Assembly: GCA_039545335.1 (NCBI GenBank)
Contig: BCIN01000003.1
Coordinates: 2,055,060-2,119,059, forward strand
Length of the DNA stretch: 64,000 bases
Source of the DNA: Kondoa subrosea
Taxonomy: Eukaryota
Direction: 5' to 3'
Shown here: one piece after another, positions 1 to 6,434 of the stretch
Position numbering within the stretch: the first letter of the stretch is position 1
Layout: each line of letters starts with the position of its first letter
The notes under the pieces: generated by a model
What the model was told of the DNA's origin: nothing
What the model saw: only the letters and a program-made list of their open reading frames with translations
Databases searched by the model: none
Position numbers and translations under genes: made by a program

Positions 1-715
1 CCGCATTGGTCATCGTTACCGTCGTCACTTCTTTCTGTGCTGATTATCGTAAGGAATCATTTGTTCGACATGCTTTGTGACGGAACTTGGTGTTGATGCT
101 TGACTCGCAGTGGTCGATTCAATTGATGAATTCGCTGATGATTACGGAATTCCAAAACCTTTTATTGGATTGATTCTGATCCCTATCGTTGGTAACGCTG
201 GTGAGTTCTGCGCAGTTTCTTGTTTCACGGGGGATGCTGATGTGGCAATAGCTGAGCACTTGACTTCCGGTGAGTTGACTTTGGTTTGTGTCGGCTGAAG
301 ACTTAGCACCATGATCTCTCACAGTCTGGATGGCCGCCAAAGGAAAGATGGAAATTGTCATTGGCGTTTCTATCGGCTCTTCTATTCAGATTGCAGTCGG
401 TGTCATCCCAATCTTGGTATTGTGTGTTTCTTTTGCCTCTACCGATATTGGAACAGATTGTCTGATTCATCGTCACAGAGTTGGCTGGGCTATGGGCAGG
501 GAGTTGACACTCTACTTTGAAAACTTCGAGACCATTTGCCTGTTCATCGCTGTTACTTTGGTCAACTCCTTGGTACAAGGTTTGCGAATTCTTATATATT
601 TGGAAATCTTGGCTGACGGTAGTGTTCGTATACAGATGGCAAATCTACGTATATGGAAGGACTCATGCTTATAGCCCTCTATGTGGTTATCGGACTCGCT
701 TTCTGGGTCTCGTAA
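1..715 (+). CDS. VCX1: Ca2+/H+ exchanger (CAX/VCX1 family), 3' part, multi-exon
   Basis: Exon peptides FIGLILIPIVGNA(A)EH, GVSIGSSIQIA, LTLYFENFETI match the CaCA alpha-2 repeat; TAA at 713-715; 5' end lies outside the window. Confidence 0.85.
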
Positions 716-926
716 AATATCCACCTTTTGTATCTCTAGTCATTTACATATACACGCTACAATACACTCGTAATCTGCTCCTTTTGCGCGTCTGTCAAGC
801 CTGTGCGTGTGATTTTCGAAGATGACCGAGTTCTGCACGCGTTTTCATTTCAAAACAACGATTTGTTCCTTTCAGCTTCGCATTGCGGAAGAGCCTCTGA
901 GACTCATTTTGACACGTACTTAGGCC

Positions 927-3868
927 ATGGCTAAAGCGAAAGGACCTAAATGTTAGCACAAGCTGTGTATACACCTCGAGAGAATCGAGTTCATCTTATT
1001 CGCTATACAGGGTATGCTGTTCGCAAAGGAGCTCAAGGCAGGAAGATTGTAACAACGTGGGATGAATGTTCTGCTATGGTGAGAGCTGCTTCTTGTTCAG
1101 CGCAAGCTCGTCTAATCTCTATCCTGTCAGGTCACTGGTTTTCGTTTGTCATACATTGCTTCTCTTTCCTCTACTTTTTGATCGTGAATGTAGCTGGTTC
1201 CGTGTACAAGAGTTTCCCTACTGAAAGCGAAGCGAAGAATTGGCTCGGTAAGTCATCCAGTAAAGTAGTCGAGAGGAACCTACTGAGTTGAGGGCAAATG
1301 CAGGCAATTTTGATGCACCTATCCTACTGTCATCTCCTGATCCCTCACCTGAGAAGAAGAAGCAAAAGGCGAAGGAAGTCATTGCTTTAAGCCCTTCGCC
1401 AACTGGAGCTCGATACAGTCCTTATCACCCAAAGAAAGCAGAGCCCGATAGTCCAGCACAGCAGCAAAAACGCTATGCTCTTCCACCTAAAGCGTCTTCT
1501 AGCCAGCAGAGTAATCTCACCTCAACCGTTTATGCATCGTCTAGTTCTCCTGTTGCTTCAACCTCGAAAACCAAGCTGGAAGATGATCTCAGTATTGCTG
1601 AATTACCTGACATTGGCGAAGCACCACCTCCACCTCCTGTCATCGTATTAAACGAAGAACAGTTGGATGTTTTAGCGAAAGTCAGAGCTGGAGAAAACAT
1701 CTTCTTCACTGGATCTGCAGGAACGGGCAAATCAGTCCTAACGCGTGCTATTATTCAGCAAATCAAGGATGAAGGTAGAACAGTGTACACTACAGCTGCA
1801 ACAGGTATGCCGCAATTGCTTCAGACTTGTATCGCTTGGATCTGAATCCTTGTCAGGCATCGCTGCTGTCAACATTGGCGGGAGTACTCTCCACTCGTTC
1901 GCTGTATGTCCTCTTATCCTTCTTGTTTTCGCACGTGAAAATTCGTTGGACAGGGTCTAGGACTGGCTAAAGAACCAAAAGAGAAATGTCTCGGAAAGCT
2001 GCTCGGTACTTTTGGCTCCAACGCTCGTAAGAGATGGAACAATTGTCAAGCTCTGATCATCGACGAAATCTCTATGGTAAGCCCTGTTCTCTTCATGCAA
2101 CTTCTGCTTACTTGCCGCAGATTGATGGAGAATTCTTTGACAAGCTCGAATTTGTTGCGCGAAACATCAGAGGCAAATTGACTCAACCATTTGGTGGTAG
2201 TAAGCATTTAGTATAGGTTCATGAGATGCAGATGCTCAGGTATCTCTTTCCAGTCCAACTGATCATTACCGGTGACATGTTCCAGCTACCGCCAGTTGGA
2301 CAGAAAGGTCAAGCTCCTCCATTATTTGCCTTCCAGGCAAAATCTTGGTCCGCTTGCTTTCCTAAATCCAACATGGTCAACTTGCGACAAGTCTTTCGAC
2401 AAAAGGATCAAACCTTTGTGGATATGTTGAACGAAATGCGTACTGGCCAGCTATCCAACTCTACTATCAAAGCTTTCTCGCAGCTCAGACGAGACGTCAC
2501 TTACAGCGATGGAGTAAATTCTTCAGCACAGGTCGAGACCAATTTCGCTGATTGAAAATATACAGGCCGCTGCGGTGCAACTTTTCCCTGTAAACTACAA
2601 GTAAGGCTTATGCTTACTTTTATGGTGTATTCCTGCTTAGCATGATCCACAGGGTTCAAGGAGCCAACGAAACCCAGCTCAAGAAGTTACCTGGTGAAGC
2701 TAGACGTTTCCAAAGCAGAGATTACCGTGGAGTTTATCTTGAACACGACAACACGACGAGCAAAGCCCAAAAGGATATGAAGACGACCGAAAAATTGGAC
2801 AAAGACACTATGGCTGCCAACAATTTGCTTTTGAAAGAAGGTGCTCAAGTCATGTTGATCAAAGTGAGTCTATCCTTGCATCGCTGATTGTAATTAAGCT
2901 AATTATCATATCGATAAGAACTTGGCAGAAGGTAATCTGGTCAACGGTTCGATCGGAAGAGTCGTTGCCTTTAAGTCTGCCGCTCAAGCGAACGGAGAAG
3001 ATACAAAAGACTTTGATGGCGATATTGAGATCGCTCATGCTCAAGACAAAAGAGGCAAAGACGAGAATGAATGGCATGGTGCTGCTGCTCGTGGTCGACC
3101 AGGCAAGAAGGGTGAACCTGCACCAATTCCTGCTGGAGAATGGCCTGTCGTGCAGTTCGAAAATGGATCAACCATGCTGCTGCCGCCTATGGAGTTCCAA
3201 GTAGAGAGTCAGTAATGCAACTCCCTCGCATTCTCAGGTGCTGATTGTTGAATACAGATGCTGATGGCAAGCTCGAGTGTCAAAGGAGTCAAGGTAGGTT
3301 GCCTCAGTATGATGATCTTGCCACGAGACTAAAGTACAATAGTGCCTCTAATTCTCGCTTGGGCGTTGTCCAGTAGGTCTCAACCTTCAAATTTTGGTTG
3401 TCGAGTCGCTAATGAAGCTTTGCACAGTTCACAAATCTCAGGTAGGTCTACATGTAGCTTGATAAGCTGTGCTGACATGTTATCGAACAGGGACAAACCA
3501 TCGAGCGTGTGTTCATTGTGAGCCTTATCTCTAAGCTCTCAATCTGTAATTGACGAGTCGCAGGATCTTACCGGTACATTCGAAAAGGTCAGCAATACTA
3601 TTGAAATCATCCGGGAACTTCGCTGACGCGTGATGACAGGGACAAGCCTACGTCAGCCCTGTAGTGATCTCACCGAATCCCCTAGCTGATAGTTGAGCAG
3701 GTTGCACTGTCTCGTGCTACTTCTATGGATACCTTGCAGGTCAAGGGCTTCTCAGCAGCGGTTGTGCAAGCTCACCCAATCGTCAGTGAGTACTCTTTTC
3801 GTAAAGCGATACAATGCAAGTGCTAATGTACAACAGCCAAATGGTATCAGTCAACATTTGGCGTATGA
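927..3868 (+). CDS. PIF1: Pif1-family 5'-3' DNA helicase with N-terminal RNase H1 hybrid-binding (Cauli_VI) domain; ~20 exons
   Basis: Motifs FFTGSAGTGKS, GGSTLHSFAG, LIIDEISM, GDMFQLPPV, VFRQKD, QVMLIKNL..LVNGSIG, PLILAWALS(I)HKSQGQT, GQAYVALSR; N-terminal spliced peptide WYAVRKG..TTWDECSAMVTGFPGSVYKSFPTESEAKNWL. Confidence 0.93.
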
Positions 3869-4573
3869 TCAACCTGTGAACAGCATTGGATCCTTGCCAA
3901 CAAAGTGTCCTTCCAAGCCTTCTTTGATCCACCATTTGACTATGCCTTCTCTTTCTAAGTAATACCCACAATTTTCTTCTCCTACATACCCTGCCTGGAC
4001 TTGCTTTCCGCTCTCTCCATTCGTCAGAAACGGCACTCTTCCCATACTGATTGCTAACCCTTCTGACTGGAATTTATGTACCACGCTTCCCACTTTCACA
4101 ATGTCTGCATATGCCCCGCTTGCTGCTGTTCTTATTCCTAGTACTACTAGCGTCCAAAAGTAGGAAGTCTTGTCTAGGTCAGACGGAATTGAAGGAGTTC
4201 CAAGGACGACCGCGCGAATGAATGTCTGACTGTGATACTTTCTGATGAGCTCGAAGATTAGAGCATATCCATCAGCGATTGGAGTACGAGGAGCCCAAGG
4301 TATAGCAATGAGATGAGTGCCGATCGATGTGTTTGGTCCTAAGGTACTGAGCAAGATTTGCACTCCTTCCAATGCTGTCAGAAGTTTTTCTTTGTCATCC
4401 AATCCACCTTCAATGATCTTCACTCTCGAATCGATCTTGAAATCTGGCGGAAGTTTGCTCGCATTACGTAGGTAGATAGTGAGGTCGTGCTCATTTTCCA
4501 GGAGTCGTCGAACGATCAATTGACCAGATTGACCGGATGAGCCGAGTAGGACTATGAAGGCGGTGAGCAGCAT
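3869..4573 (-). CDS. NAD(P)H-binding Rossmann-fold protein (flavin reductase/BLVRB-like atypical SDR)
   Basis: Intronless 234-aa ORF, N-terminal LLGSSGQSG dinucleotide-binding loop, RNASKL, IIEGGLDD. Confidence 0.8.
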   Translation of the reverse strand: MLLTAFIVLLGSSGQSGQLIVRRLLENEHDLTIYLRNASKLPPDFKIDSRVKIIEGGLDDKEKLLTALEGVQILLSTLGPNTSIGTHLIAIPWAPRTPIADGYALIFELIRKYHSQTFIRAVVLGTPSIPSDLDKTSYFWTLVVLGIRTAASGAYADIVKVGSVVHKFQSEGLAISMGRVPFLTNGESGKQVQAGYVGEENCGYYLEREGIVKWWIKEGLEGHFVGKDPMLFTG

Positions 4574-4798
4574 ATACGTAGTAGAGTCTGAGCCTACAGA
4601 AACGCATGCAATTCGCTGATCAGCTCCAACTTGGCTTCAACCCAAACTGCCGTGTCGCTCGCGTACCTGGTGCAGCAGAGACTACACTCTGTAGAGGTTC
4701 TCCTAGTGGATCAAGAGACAGGTGTACAACGTCAATCCGTCTTGATATCGCTCGACTCGATCCATTGCCTCGCCCTCGCTTCATCACATCATCAAAAG

Positions 4799-6434
4799 AT
4801 GCTTGCACTACCTGTGGAAACGCTTTGCCAGATATTTGCCGAGGAAGGCATGTCTCAGAGGGACCTTATAGCTGTCAACGCAACAAACCGTTCGCTGGTT
4901 TCTTTCTCGTAGATGAGCATCTCTCATGCTCAAAGCAGGTCACTTCTACTCTCTTACCAAGACTCTGATCTTTCGTAGCCTGGAAGCTGGCAATCTGGAA
5001 AATATGCGACTGCACGAAAGATTTAGTGAAGATGCAACTTTGGCTTTGGCAGCGAAGAGCTGTGTCTGGACTTTACATTTCGAAGAGCCTGAACCTCGTT
5101 CACCTCCACCTATCGAGTCTGCGTCCCGAATAGCTTTTAATCGGAGCAATGTTCGAAAGACGCGCAAGATCGCTGAACGACAAAATGCCATAGAAGACGA
5201 AGAGCTGGAAGCGGCGGCAAATAGACAAAGAGAAGAGAGATTGGCCTTTGAGCAAGAGCTGGCAGCCAACTTTCCGCAAGTCTTGTTAGATCATCGCCGC
5301 CGAATCGATGCAGCTGCACAGCTTATGGAGACGTTCACCAATATGCAGAGATTGGAGATCATTGTGAAAGACCCCACATACGCAATTCCTCGCCAAATCA
5401 GCGCTTTAGTCAAATCGAGCCATCTAAGCCCGAGACTCCCACGAAGTTTGAGCAATCAAATCAGGTTAATCGATCTTGTATTTACCGGGAAGAGCAGTTT
5501 TCGCCCATACTACAAGCATATCCATACTTGGATCAACTCTCTGCGATCCGTTCATTCGATGAGCGTGCATACCGCAAGTACAAATAATGGACATACTGAA
5601 ATGCTACCTACCTTGGCAACAAACGCTCTTCGCTCGCTGGATATCTATCTTTATCCGCAATACGATCCTGAATCACCAAGACCCTCGACCAAAACTTTGC
5701 GTGATCTTCTAGCGACTCCAAACCATTTGACCAGTTTAAATCTTGATTTCCGTTTGGAAAACCTCCTTTGGTCGACCCTCTTCACACCCGGCGTTACTCT
5801 ACATCACTTACAACACCTTTCTGTTGGTTACTTCAAAGAGCCCATAACAGCTGAAGAATGGTCACTACTTACTACCGCTACCCCCAATCTCATTCGACTG
5901 AGCATTCTCATATACATTGAAGCATGGAAAACCACGGATATGAGTCCTTTCCCAGATCAAGTACAAGGTCTTGCTCGACATGTCATTCTTCCAAGGCTCC
6001 GTCAGCTTCATGTTTATGAACATGGATTGAGGTCTTACAGCACGATCGCTGAAGCTCATCTTTACCGTTTATCATTCTTAACTCAATTTCTCCGGGATCC
6101 GGCCTGGCAGCAAGTCTCAGATATGACTTTCCCTTTCGTGATGGGTTCTAGAATCCAGATGCGCAAACTCCTGGGCGATCATCATGTCATCCCCATTGTG
6201 CAGGAGACTCAGCAACCGAAAAAGGGCAAACAGCGTATTCCAAAACCTCGAACACTCGAACAACGCGACCTTGATGTAATTATGCCATGTATAGTACAAG
6301 ATTTCCACCAATTAGCTCTGCATCATTCGGCAGGTAGAAGACTGGAAGTGCAAATGGTAGGGAACAGATGTAATGGGTTGCGGAGTCTACTTATGGACAG
6401 GGATGGCTCAATCACTGAAAATTGGGCTGCTTAA
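4799..6434 (+). CDS. F-box-like N-terminus plus leucine-rich-repeat-like protein
   Basis: MLALPVETLCQIF F-box-like start, short intron, then 502-aa ORF with repeated LxxLxL (LRSLDI, LTSLNL, LQHLSV, LIRLSI, LRQLHV). Confidence 0.55.

What the first reader, a model, noticed from the sequence alone, without database searches (positions are those of the whole stretch)
927..3868. Pif1 helicase fused to an RNase H1-type RNA:DNA hybrid-binding domain (HBD/Cauli_VI)
Seen: four small exons (927-951, 1011-1078, 1131-1143, 1194-1247) splice via canonical GT-AG introns into exon 5 (from 1304). This gives MAKAKGPKWYAVRKGAQGRKIVTTWDECSAMVTGFPGSVYKSFPTESEAKNWLG, in frame with a ~110-aa S/P-rich linker and a complete Pif1 core. 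No RNase H catalytic domain was found in the gene. Known: this peptide matches the YAVxxG..W.EC...V.GF.GA.YKSF...EA..W pattern of the RNase H1 N-terminal hybrid-binding domain. Pif1 helicases unwind RNA:DNA hybrids and act at R-loops, telomerase and Okazaki fragments. Characterised yeast and human Pif1/Rrm3/Pfh1 lack this domain as far as I know. Inference: a helicase with a built-in R-loop/hybrid sensor, possibly a lineage-specific R-loop or telomerase-displacing enzyme. The domain is split across micro-exons, so automated annotation could easily miss it.
Basis: partly seen in the sequence, partly recalled or inferred. Interest (0 to 1): 0.88.

Follow-up and report, generated by a model that had tools for sequence, protein, structure and literature searches.

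The report
Pif1 helicase with RNase H1-type hybrid-binding domain
This is a real 20-exon fungal gene for a Pif1 DNA helicase that carries the small RNA:DNA-hybrid-binding domain of RNase H1 at its front end, but the same design is already present in many annotated basidiomycete proteins, so it is an unstudied family rather than a new invention.

Summary
The four micro-exons join exon 5 through GT-AG introns. The whole gene (927-3868, + strand) resolves into 20 exons and a 654-aa protein. The unspliced frame already scores Pfam Cauli_VI/PF01693 at E 2.3e-10. The spliced N-terminus scores E 4.4e-17 against a hybrid-binding-domain (HBD) profile built from orthologues. The rest is a complete Pif1 core, collinear with orthologues from residue 1.

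The architecture is not lineage-restricted or hidden. PF01693+PF05970 is recorded for 82 of the 120 best relatives, from Agaricomycetes, Tremellomycetes (Cryptococcus, Kwoniella) and Puccinia. It is a paralogue of the conventional Pif1; Mycena chlorophos has both. An unrelated metagenomic, giant-virus-like Pif1 clade carries the same fusion. A preprint cites amoebal Pif1s with an "RNase H1-like RNA binding" motif. I found no functional study.

The likely role is a flexible tether that holds the helicase on RNA:DNA hybrids. This is inferred, not shown. The human Trp43 and Lys59 equivalents are kept, and Lys60 is Ser. No RNA data exist for this organism.

Verdict: real, a new member of a known but uncharacterised kind, of moderate interest.

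The parts
927..3868 (+). Whole CDS span of the HBD-Pif1 gene: 20 exons, 19 GT-AG introns of 44-59 nt, 654 aa, from ATG 927 to TGA 3866-3868
   Evidence: Gene model built from the sequence. It aligns collinearly from residue 1 with annotated orthologues.
927..951 (+). Exon 1 (25 nt): start codon and residues 1-8
   Evidence: An in-frame TAG at 921-923 lies upstream.
1011..1078 (+). Exon 2 (68 nt): first half of the HBD, including the conserved Tyr and the Trp equivalent to human Trp43
   Evidence: Pfam stretch 22-46 of frame 950-1291 matches profile positions 3-26.
1131..1143 (+). Exon 3 (13-nt micro-exon): middle of the HBD
   Evidence: It is required for the reading frame. Its residues fit consensus columns 27-31 of 77 fusion HBDs.
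1194..1247 (+). Exon 4 (54 nt): second half of the HBD, with the Y-K-S-F motif equivalent to human F58-K59-K60-F61
   Evidence: Second Pfam stretch. Residue mapping.
1304..1804 (+). Exon 5 (501 nt): Ser/Pro/Lys-rich linker (residues 54-165, to about nt 1638), then the start of the helicase core with Walker A GSAGTGKS at 1711-1734
   Evidence: Pfam PIF1 E 1.7e-10 on frame 1264-1845. Linker composition. Sequence read.
1857..1903 (+). Exon 6 (motif Ia region)
   Evidence: alignment
1954..2076 (+). Exon 7 (ends with Walker B, IIDEISM)
2121..2199 (+). Exon 8 (Pif1 signature region, DKLE..AR..)
   Evidence: The name of the motif is recalled, not taken from a call.
2254..2513 (+). Exon 9 (motifs III and IV)
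   Evidence: Pfam PIF1 E 1.3e-7 on frame 2217-2555.
2566..2600 (+). Exon 10
2653..2863 (+). Exon 11
2919..3207 (+). Exon 12 (2B/SH3-like region and a variable insert)
   Evidence: Orthologues carry Pif1_2B_dom at this position.
3258..3293 (+). Exon 13
3343..3372 (+). Exon 14
3428..3441 (+). Exon 15 (14-nt micro-exon, motif V)
3491..3517 (+). Exon 16
3564..3587 (+). Exon 17
3640..3651 (+). Exon 18 (12-nt micro-exon)
3701..3785 (+). Exon 19 (motif VI)
3837..3868 (+). Exon 20 with stop codon TGA 3866-3868

Best explanation
Shown:
- The locus is one intron-rich gene of a basidiomycete-type fungus.
- Its 654-aa product has three parts. Residues 8-53 are an RNase H1-type hybrid-binding domain (HBD). 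Residues 54-165 are a Ser/Pro/Lys-rich linker. The rest is a complete SF1B Pif1 helicase core with Walker A, Walker B and the later motifs intact.
- It belongs to a group of HBD-bearing Pif1 proteins found across Basidiomycota. This group is separate from the conventional Pif1, which has no HBD.

Inferred mechanism:
- The HBD binds the duplex part of an RNA:DNA hybrid.
- The flexible linker then keeps the 5'-3' helicase core nearby, so it can load on adjacent single-stranded DNA and strip the RNA.
- This is the tethering logic by which the HBD makes RNase H1 processive, with a motor in place of the nuclease.
- Likely substrates are R-loops met by forks, Okazaki primers and the telomerase RNA-telomere hybrid.
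- Because the HBD starts at residue 8, leaving no room for a presequence, I infer a nuclear role.
For: Gene and domains:
- Canonical splice sites and an open 654-aa frame.
- Pfam Cauli_VI E 2.3e-10 and PIF1 E 1.7e-10 and 1.3e-7 on unspliced frames.
- The spliced N-terminus scores E 4.4e-17 against an HBD profile seeded from six Pfam-verified orthologues.

Same architecture in relatives:
- 7 of 20 hits and 82 of 120 hits carry PF01693+PF05970 in precomputed Pfam. By my profile it is 87 of 120.
- The HBD starts within the first 30 residues in 85 of the 90 hit rows.
- Six Logan-source proteins of 576-672 aa with both domains sit on contigs of only 1980-2386 nt. That leaves no room for introns, so I infer they are spliced transcripts.

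Paralogy:
- The conventional Pif1 clade holds 10 rows, none with an HBD (support 91; 99).
- Mycena chlorophos has one gene in each group.

HBD likeness to solved HBDs:
- The N-terminal 60 aa of an orthologue match the yeast RNase H1 N-domain 1qhk (E 1.5e-7) and the human HBD-hybrid complex 3bsu (E 4.9e-6).
- Human Trp43, Lys59 and Lys60 form the binding surface, and W43A abolishes hybrid binding (passages of PMC6846478).
- The Trp is kept in the window and in 67 of 77 fusion HBDs. The Lys59 position is Lys or Arg in 71 of 77.

Tether logic and Pif1 preference for hybrids:
- The HBD gives RNase H1 processivity through a linker (passages of PMC11358518).
- ScPif1 unwinds RNA:DNA preferentially, but only 15-20 bp per binding event, and this preference needs its N-terminal domain (passages of review PMC8998199).

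Recurrence: an unrelated metagenomic Pif1 clade carries the same fusion.
Against: - There is no transcript evidence for this organism, so the splice is a model.
- No binding or unwinding data exist for any HBD-Pif1.
- The Lys60 equivalent is Ser in the window and in 53 of 77 fusion HBDs (Lys in only 3). The Phe58 equivalent is mostly His, and Tyr in the window. In human RNase H1 the K59A and K60A substitutions cut hybrid affinity about 10-fold, so affinity or specificity may differ here.
- HBDs can also bind double-stranded RNA (title of a cited Cerritelli and Crouch paper) and proteins such as P32 (abstract of PMC3750045).
- A single origin of the fusion within Basidiomycota is only weakly supported: 54% bootstrap, and one clade in 48% of bootstrap trees.
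- Whether this organism also has a conventional PIF1 and an RNH1 could not be checked, because no genome is held.
Confidence: 0.6

Rival explanations
1. The gene and the fusion are real, but the N-terminal domain does not target RNA:DNA hybrids. It would instead bind double-stranded RNA or another nucleic acid, or act as a protein-interaction or regulatory module for the helicase.
For: - The Lys60 equivalent is replaced by Ser, Gly or Ala in 73 of 77 fusion HBDs, and the Phe58 equivalent is mostly His.
- K59A and K60A lower hybrid affinity about 10-fold in the human domain.
- The human HBD binds protein P32 (abstract of PMC3750045).
- The yeast non-RNase H domain binds dsRNA (title cited).
Against: - The Trp that is indispensable for hybrid binding, and the Lys59 position, are conserved.
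- The domain scores well above the Pfam cut-off.
- The same fusion arose in a separate Pif1 clade. That fits a substrate-level synergy, because Pif1 itself prefers RNA:DNA.
Confidence: 0.22
2. This is a gene-model artefact. Exons 1-4 would be a separate small gene or non-coding DNA, and the helicase would start downstream.
For: No RNA run was available to test splicing in this organism. Many database relatives are annotated without the domain (33 of the 120, by my profile).
Against: - Four consecutive GT-AG introns of the same size class as the other 15 keep one frame.
- There is no alternative in-frame start, and the ATG is preceded by a stop.
- The result is collinear from residue 1 with dozens of independently annotated orthologues.
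- Intron-free contigs in relatives encode both domains.
- The HBD-less models mostly have abnormally short N-termini.
Confidence: 0.03
3. It is the helicase of a Helitron or another mobile element that has captured a viroplasmin-like domain.
For: Helitron RepHel proteins contain a Pif1-like domain. A Pleurotus helitron carries a separate captured gene with PF01693 (passages of PMC4289320).
Against: - In that paper the domain is in a separate gene, not fused to the helicase.
- The nearest orthologue matches solved Pif1 chains at E 1.4e-99 but the Helraiser transposase only at E 6.4e-16.
- No Rep or Helitron-like domain appeared in the frames I scanned.
- Ordinary host genes flank the locus closely: a Na/Ca exchanger about 210 bp upstream, and an NmrA-like gene abutting downstream.
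- The window holds a single copy.
Confidence: 0.02

Closest known systems
Annotated basidiomycete 'ATP-dependent DNA helicase PIF1' or hypothetical proteins carrying PF01693+PF05970, for example from Phanerochaete sordida, Coprinopsis cinerea, Rhizopogon vesiculosus, Cryptococcus gattii, Kwoniella species and Puccinia striiformis (names as given by sources)
   Same: They share the order HBD, linker, Pif1 core. They are collinear with the window protein from residue 1, with a best identity of 44.7% over 689 columns. They share the H/Y-K-S-F variant of the HBD contact motif.
   Different: The window protein is more diverged than any fetched relative: its end branch is 0.9-1.2 and it is at most about 45% identical. 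Its placement among early-branching Agaricomycete lineages is unresolved. Some relatives have tandem gene copies or two HBDs.
Eukaryotic RNase H1 (HBD, flexible linker, catalytic domain)
   Same: It has the same N-terminal HBD family (Pfam PF01693; matches to 1qhk and 3bsu through an orthologue) and the same module-linker-enzyme layout. In RNase H1 that layout gives processivity.
   Different: There is no RNase H catalytic domain; a helicase motor takes its place. The Lys60 equivalent is Ser. There is no N-terminal presequence ahead of the HBD.
Characterised Pif1 helicases (S. cerevisiae Pif1 and Rrm3, S. pombe Pfh1, human PIF1)
   Same: They share the SF1B Pif1 core. An orthologue matches solved PIF1 chains at E 1.4e-99 (5o6b) and E 2.4e-85 (6hph). 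ScPif1 prefers RNA:DNA substrates.
   Different: Their N-terminal regions are described as largely disordered, of unknown function, and carrying mitochondrial signals. The conventional fungal Pif1 proteins I scanned have no PF01693. Whether the HBD group corresponds to the Rrm3 lineage was not tested, because I had no named Rrm3 sequence.
Metagenomic, giant-virus-like HBD-Pif1 clade (L029 on an IMG/VR contig, L053, P0135 and relatives) and amoebal Pif1s with an 'RNase H1-like RNA binding' motif
   Same: They have an N-terminal PF01693 followed by PF05970 in one ORF. Of the 120 best relatives, 64 carry the HBD. The amoebal case is mentioned in the introduction of bioRxiv 10.1101/163188.
   Different: The linker is short (about 17 aa) and the proteins have about 500 aa. 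The helicase core groups with viral and bacterial Pif1-like proteins, far from the fungal ones (100/100 branch), so the fusion is probably independent. I could not read the amoebal source paper.

Membership tests
Pif1 family (SF1B helicase, Pfam PF05970) | Significant match to the PIF1 profile over the N-terminal RecA-like domain | tested here: met
   PF05970 scores E 1.7e-10 (41.3 bits, cut-off 25.9) on frame 1264-1845 and E 1.3e-7 (31.9 bits) on frame 2217-2555.
Pif1 family (SF1B helicase, Pfam PF05970) | Intact ATPase and helicase motifs: Walker A, Walker B, motifs III-VI, and the Pif1 signature between motifs II and III (motif names recalled) | tested here: met
   GSAGTGKS, IIDEISM, DKLE..AR, GD.FQLPPV, VFRQ, SIHKSQG and GQAYVALSR are all present in the spliced model and aligned with orthologues.
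Pif1 family (SF1B helicase, Pfam PF05970) | Closer to Pif1 proper than to Helitron helicases | tested here: met
   Tested on the nearest orthologue, P0031, not on the window protein itself. It matches PDB PIF1 chains at E 1.4e-99 and Helraiser at E 6.4e-16.
Pif1 family (SF1B helicase, Pfam PF05970) | 5'-3' DNA unwinding activity | not testable with these tools
   This needs biochemistry.
RNase H1-type hybrid-binding domain (Pfam Cauli_VI, PF01693) | Profile match above the curated threshold | tested here: met
   41 bits against a cut-off of 21, E 2.3e-10, in two stretches on the unspliced frame. The spliced domain scores E 4.4e-17 against my own profile.
RNase H1-type hybrid-binding domain (Pfam Cauli_VI, PF01693) | Hybrid-contact residues equivalent to human Trp43, Lys59 and Lys60 | tested here: inconclusive
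   Trp and the Lys59 equivalent are present. The Lys60 equivalent is Ser, and the Phe58 equivalent is Tyr.
RNase H1-type hybrid-binding domain (Pfam Cauli_VI, PF01693) | Preferential binding of RNA:DNA duplex | not testable with these tools
   This needs EMSA or a similar assay.
RNase H1 (enzyme family) | RNase H catalytic domain C-terminal to the HBD | tested here: not met
   The model is fully covered by HBD, linker and Pif1 core. No RNase H family appeared among the Pfam hits of the window frames or of seven orthologues at E<=1e-5.
Helitron RepHel | Rep/Helitron-like N-terminal domain joined to the helicase, in multiple copies | tested here: not met
   No such Pfam hit. The upstream neighbour is a Na/Ca exchanger gene. 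The window holds a single copy. Genome-wide copy number was not testable.

The most novel reading that the evidence does not exclude
HBD-Pif1 would be a dedicated, non-nucleolytic RNA:DNA-hybrid remover, working like RNase H1 but with the nuclease exchanged for a helicase. It would be maintained across Basidiomycota beside the conventional Pif1. It would also have been assembled independently in a giant-virus-like lineage and perhaps in amoebae. That convergence would indicate that tethering Pif1 to hybrids solves a general problem, namely the enzyme's low processivity on long hybrids. It would also offer a natural system for separating Pif1's hybrid-directed roles from its G-quadruplex and mitochondrial roles.
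Probability: 0.4. Interest if true: 0.6.

Novelty: new member of a known kind. Interest (0 to 1): 0.38.

Why it matters
Pif1 helicases are implicated at R-loops, Okazaki fragments and telomerase, but how they are directed to RNA:DNA hybrids is unclear. ScPif1 unwinds only 15-20 bp of hybrid per binding event. A natural Pif1 with a built-in hybrid-binding module, conserved across a whole phylum that includes genetically tractable species, is a ready-made test of whether tethering changes processivity and target choice. For this window alone, the value is mainly a correct 20-exon gene model and a warning that micro-exons hide the domain in many automated annotations.

Tried and rejected
- RNA evidence: the look-up of sequencing runs on 800-3900 listed no RNA holder, so read laying could not be used.
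- Whole-genome checks for a second PIF1 and an RNH1: no genome is held for this window.
- Earlier scan notes: nothing was found by place or by words (one search was a word-format error).
- Searching PDB with the unspliced frame gave spurious tachylectin-2 and lectin hits that came from intron-translated residues. I repeated the search with an orthologue's N-terminus.
- The structural HBD paper (Nowotny 2008) is not held, by DOI or by PMC id. I took the contact residues from passages of PMC6846478 instead.
- The idea that the basidiomycete and giant-virus-like fusions share one origin (horizontal transfer) is not supported. The helicase cores lie on opposite sides of a 100/100 branch.
  - In one search, six locus rows (L001, L005, L011, L038, L050, L055) were wrongly chosen ORFs on very long branches and should be ignored.
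- The bacterial occurrence suggested by the Atlas (a Bacillota cluster) was not confirmed. Of 22 bacterial or archaeal loci, only L053 carries the fusion. L053 is 74% identical to the IMG/VR protein of L029, so that contig may be mis-binned.
- I did not run structure prediction.
Full report
**Observation**

I read 1-4500 and rebuilt the splice in scripts.

The introns are 59, 52, 50 and 56 nt, and all are GT..AG.
- A TAG at 921-923 closes the frame just upstream of the ATG.
- Following the frame downstream with the same rules gives 15 more GT-AG introns of 44-55 nt and a stop at 3866-3868. The gene has 20 exons, a 1965-nt CDS and a 654-aa product.
- Several exons are tiny (12, 13 and 14 nt).

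**Is it more than chance?**

- The raw frame 950-1291 happens to carry exons 2 and 4 in one frame. It scores Pfam Cauli_VI (PF01693, "Ribonuclease H1 N-terminal domain") at E 2.3e-10, 41 bits against a curated cut-off of 21, in two stretches.
- I built an HBD profile from six orthologues whose domain Pfam had verified. The spliced product hits it at residues 8-53 with E 4.4e-17.
- A six-frame scan of the whole window gives only this locus (E 7.3e-9). The next best hit is E 0.59.
- PIF1 (PF05970) is found on exon 5 (E 1.7e-10) and exon 9 (E 1.3e-7).
- The spliced model carries Walker A, Walker B and the later helicase motifs, aligned with orthologues over its whole length.
- Residues 54-165 form a linker with 19 Pro and 19 Ser among 112 residues.
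- No RNase H catalytic domain is present.

**Relatives and distribution**

A search with exon 5 against longer proteins returned 20 hits. Seven carry PF01693+PF05970: Paxillus, Cutaneotrichosporon (two), Trametes, Rhizopogon, Tulasnella and Coniferiporia. Pfam places their HBD at residues 5-52, ahead of the helicase.

A profile of three of these proteins found 2303 proteins at E<=1e-60 among 8000 scored candidates.

- Of the 120 listed, 82 carry both families in the precomputed Pfam column. By my profile it is 87.
- They come from many Agaricomycetes (Coprinopsis cinerea, Pleurotus, Mycena, Phanerochaete, Suillus and others), from Tremellomycetes (Kwoniella, Cryptococcus, Tremella), from Puccinia, and from Serendipita and Tulasnella.
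- Most are simply named "ATP-dependent DNA helicase PIF1" or "hypothetical protein".
- The window protein aligns from residue 1 with these. The best match is 44.7% identity over 689 columns, to a Phanerochaete sordida protein. The organism's own annotation is therefore not in the database, and it is a diverged lineage.
- Six Logan-source members of 576-672 aa with both domains lie on contigs of 1980-2386 nt. These are too short to hold introns, so I infer they are spliced mRNAs. This is indirect transcript support in relatives, not in this organism.

**Paralogy**

A FastTree of 126 rows was built with the HBD columns removed. Nine mis-modelled or fragmentary rows were left out: P0001, P0003, P0005, P0008, P0014, P0016, P0021, P0028 and P0117.

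- It shows a conventional Pif1 clade of 10 rows, none with an HBD. This clade holds Saccharomycodes PIF1, Mycena chlorophos P0018, Rhizoctonia and Ceratobasidium (support 91).
- The HBD-bearing groups are Puccinia (3 rows), Tremellomycetes (16 rows, support 100) and Agaricomycetes (96 rows, including the window).

A careful IQ-TREE of 33 rows adds the following.

- It keeps the two Mycena chlorophos genes apart. P0064 groups with M. sanguinolenta in the HBD group (99/96). P0018 groups with Rhizoctonia (92/88).
- It recovers all 21 basidiomycete HBD rows as one side of a branch, but weakly (54/100, and in 48% of bootstrap trees). A single origin is therefore compatible with the data but not demonstrated.
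- The window sits on a long branch in an unresolved basal polytomy.

Rows without an HBD are scattered inside the HBD groups. Of 33 such proteins, 16 have Walker A before residue 100, the minimum in HBD rows.

Tandem copies are common, by gene numbering or shared contigs (Volvariella, Tetrapyrgos, Rhodofomes, Phanerochaete). One Paxillus model fuses two copies. The window has one copy.

**Outside fungi**

- The ESM Atlas pointed to clusters named for RNase H1 N-terminal plus PIF1 in Nucleocytoviricota (53 members) and in Bacteria (78 members). These are leads only.
- I fetched 34 viral and 22 bacterial or archaeal Pif1 loci. Two of the 56 encode an HBD and Pif1 in one ORF, and Pfam confirmed both: L029 (PF01693 E 2.5e-20) and L053 (E 5.8e-18).
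- L029 and L053 are 74% identical, so the "Bacteroidetes MAG" contig behind L053 may be mis-binned.
- Their 120 best relatives are all unnamed metagenomic proteins, and 64 of them carry the HBD.
- Their helicase cores group with viral and bacterial Pif1-like proteins and are separated from the fungal ones by a 100/100 branch. I therefore read this as an independent fusion.

**Literature**

- No paper combines Pif1 with Cauli_VI, with "Ribonuclease H1 N-terminal", or with viroplasmin as a fusion.
- The only PF01693+helicase paper (PMC4289320, passages read) describes a separate captured gene in a Pleurotus helitron.
- The introduction of bioRxiv 10.1101/163188 (passages read) states that "amoeboid work" found PIF1 helicases with accessory "RNase H1-like RNA binding" motifs. 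The preprint's reference list is not held, so I could not read the source.
- Reviews on R-loops that mention both Pif1 and the HBD appeared only as search listings, and I did not read them.

**Mechanism**

What is established elsewhere:

- The HBD, through a linker, is proposed to give RNase H1 its processivity (PMC11358518 passages).
- Human Trp43, Lys59 and Lys60 form the binding surface. W43A abolishes hybrid binding, and K59A and K60A reduce it about 10-fold (PMC6846478 passages).
- ScPif1 prefers RNA:DNA, but unwinds only 15-20 bp per event and needs its N-terminal domain for that preference (PMC8998199 passages).

I mapped the contact residues through the 3bsu and 6vrd alignments of an orthologue and my own alignments.

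| Human residue | Window | 77 near-complete fusion HBDs |
|---|---|---|
| Trp43 | Trp | Trp in 67 |
| Lys59 | Lys | Lys or Arg in 71 |
| Lys60 | Ser | Ser in 53, Lys in 3 |
| Phe58 | Tyr | mostly His |

My inference is that the HBD anchors the protein on the hybrid duplex, while the 112-residue linker lets the motor load on nearby single-stranded DNA and displace the RNA. The changed contact motif leaves room for a different affinity or ligand. The HBD begins at residue 8, so I infer no mitochondrial presequence and a nuclear role. A Lys-rich stretch in the linker could be a nuclear localisation signal. That, too, is inference.

**Context**

The gene is flanked by ordinary host genes. Upstream is the 3' part of a Na/Ca-exchanger family gene ending near 715. 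Downstream is a convergent NAD(P)H-binding, NmrA-like gene. This context, together with the much weaker match to Helraiser, argues against a Helitron origin.

**Verdict**

It is wrong in supposing that the architecture is rare or hidden: it is a phylum-wide paralogue, already annotated with both domains in many records, and it recurs elsewhere. It remains functionally uncharacterised as far as I could find. I rate it a new member of a known kind, with moderate interest.

Noticed in passing
window 3866-3871 and 3872-4636 (- strand): A convergent NAD(P)H-binding, NmrA-like gene (PF13460 E 1.4e-12) ends with its stop codon at 3869-3871 on the minus strand. That directly abuts the Pif1 stop at 3866-3868 (the palindrome TGATCA), so the two 3' UTRs must overlap.
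   Followed up: partly
window 1-715 (+ strand): This is the 3' part of an intron-containing Na/Ca-exchanger family gene (PF01699 on two frames). It ends about 210 bp before the Pif1 start codon.
   Followed up: partly
window 4917-6434 (+ strand): A 505-aa open frame with no Pfam match at E<=0.001.
   Followed up: no
P0023, P0001 and gene pairs listed: One Logan-source HBD-Pif1 has two HBDs in tandem (residues 6-53 and 94-141), as yeast RNase H1 is described to have. A Paxillus model fuses two tandem HBD-Pif1 copies. Several Agaricomycetes have neighbouring paralogue pairs.
   Followed up: partly
L053 (contig RGCF01000037.1) and L035 (contig PBYE01000081.1): Two contigs filed under bacterial MAGs look foreign. 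L053's HBD-Pif1 is 74% identical to the protein of IMG/VR contig L029. L035's Pif1 groups inside the conventional fungal Pif1 clade (support 99).
   Followed up: partly
window 950-1291, unspliced frame: The intron-translated residues plus exon 4 give a spurious repeated match to tachylectin-2 and related propeller lectins (E 5e-6). This comes from translating through introns and has no biological meaning.
   Followed up: yes
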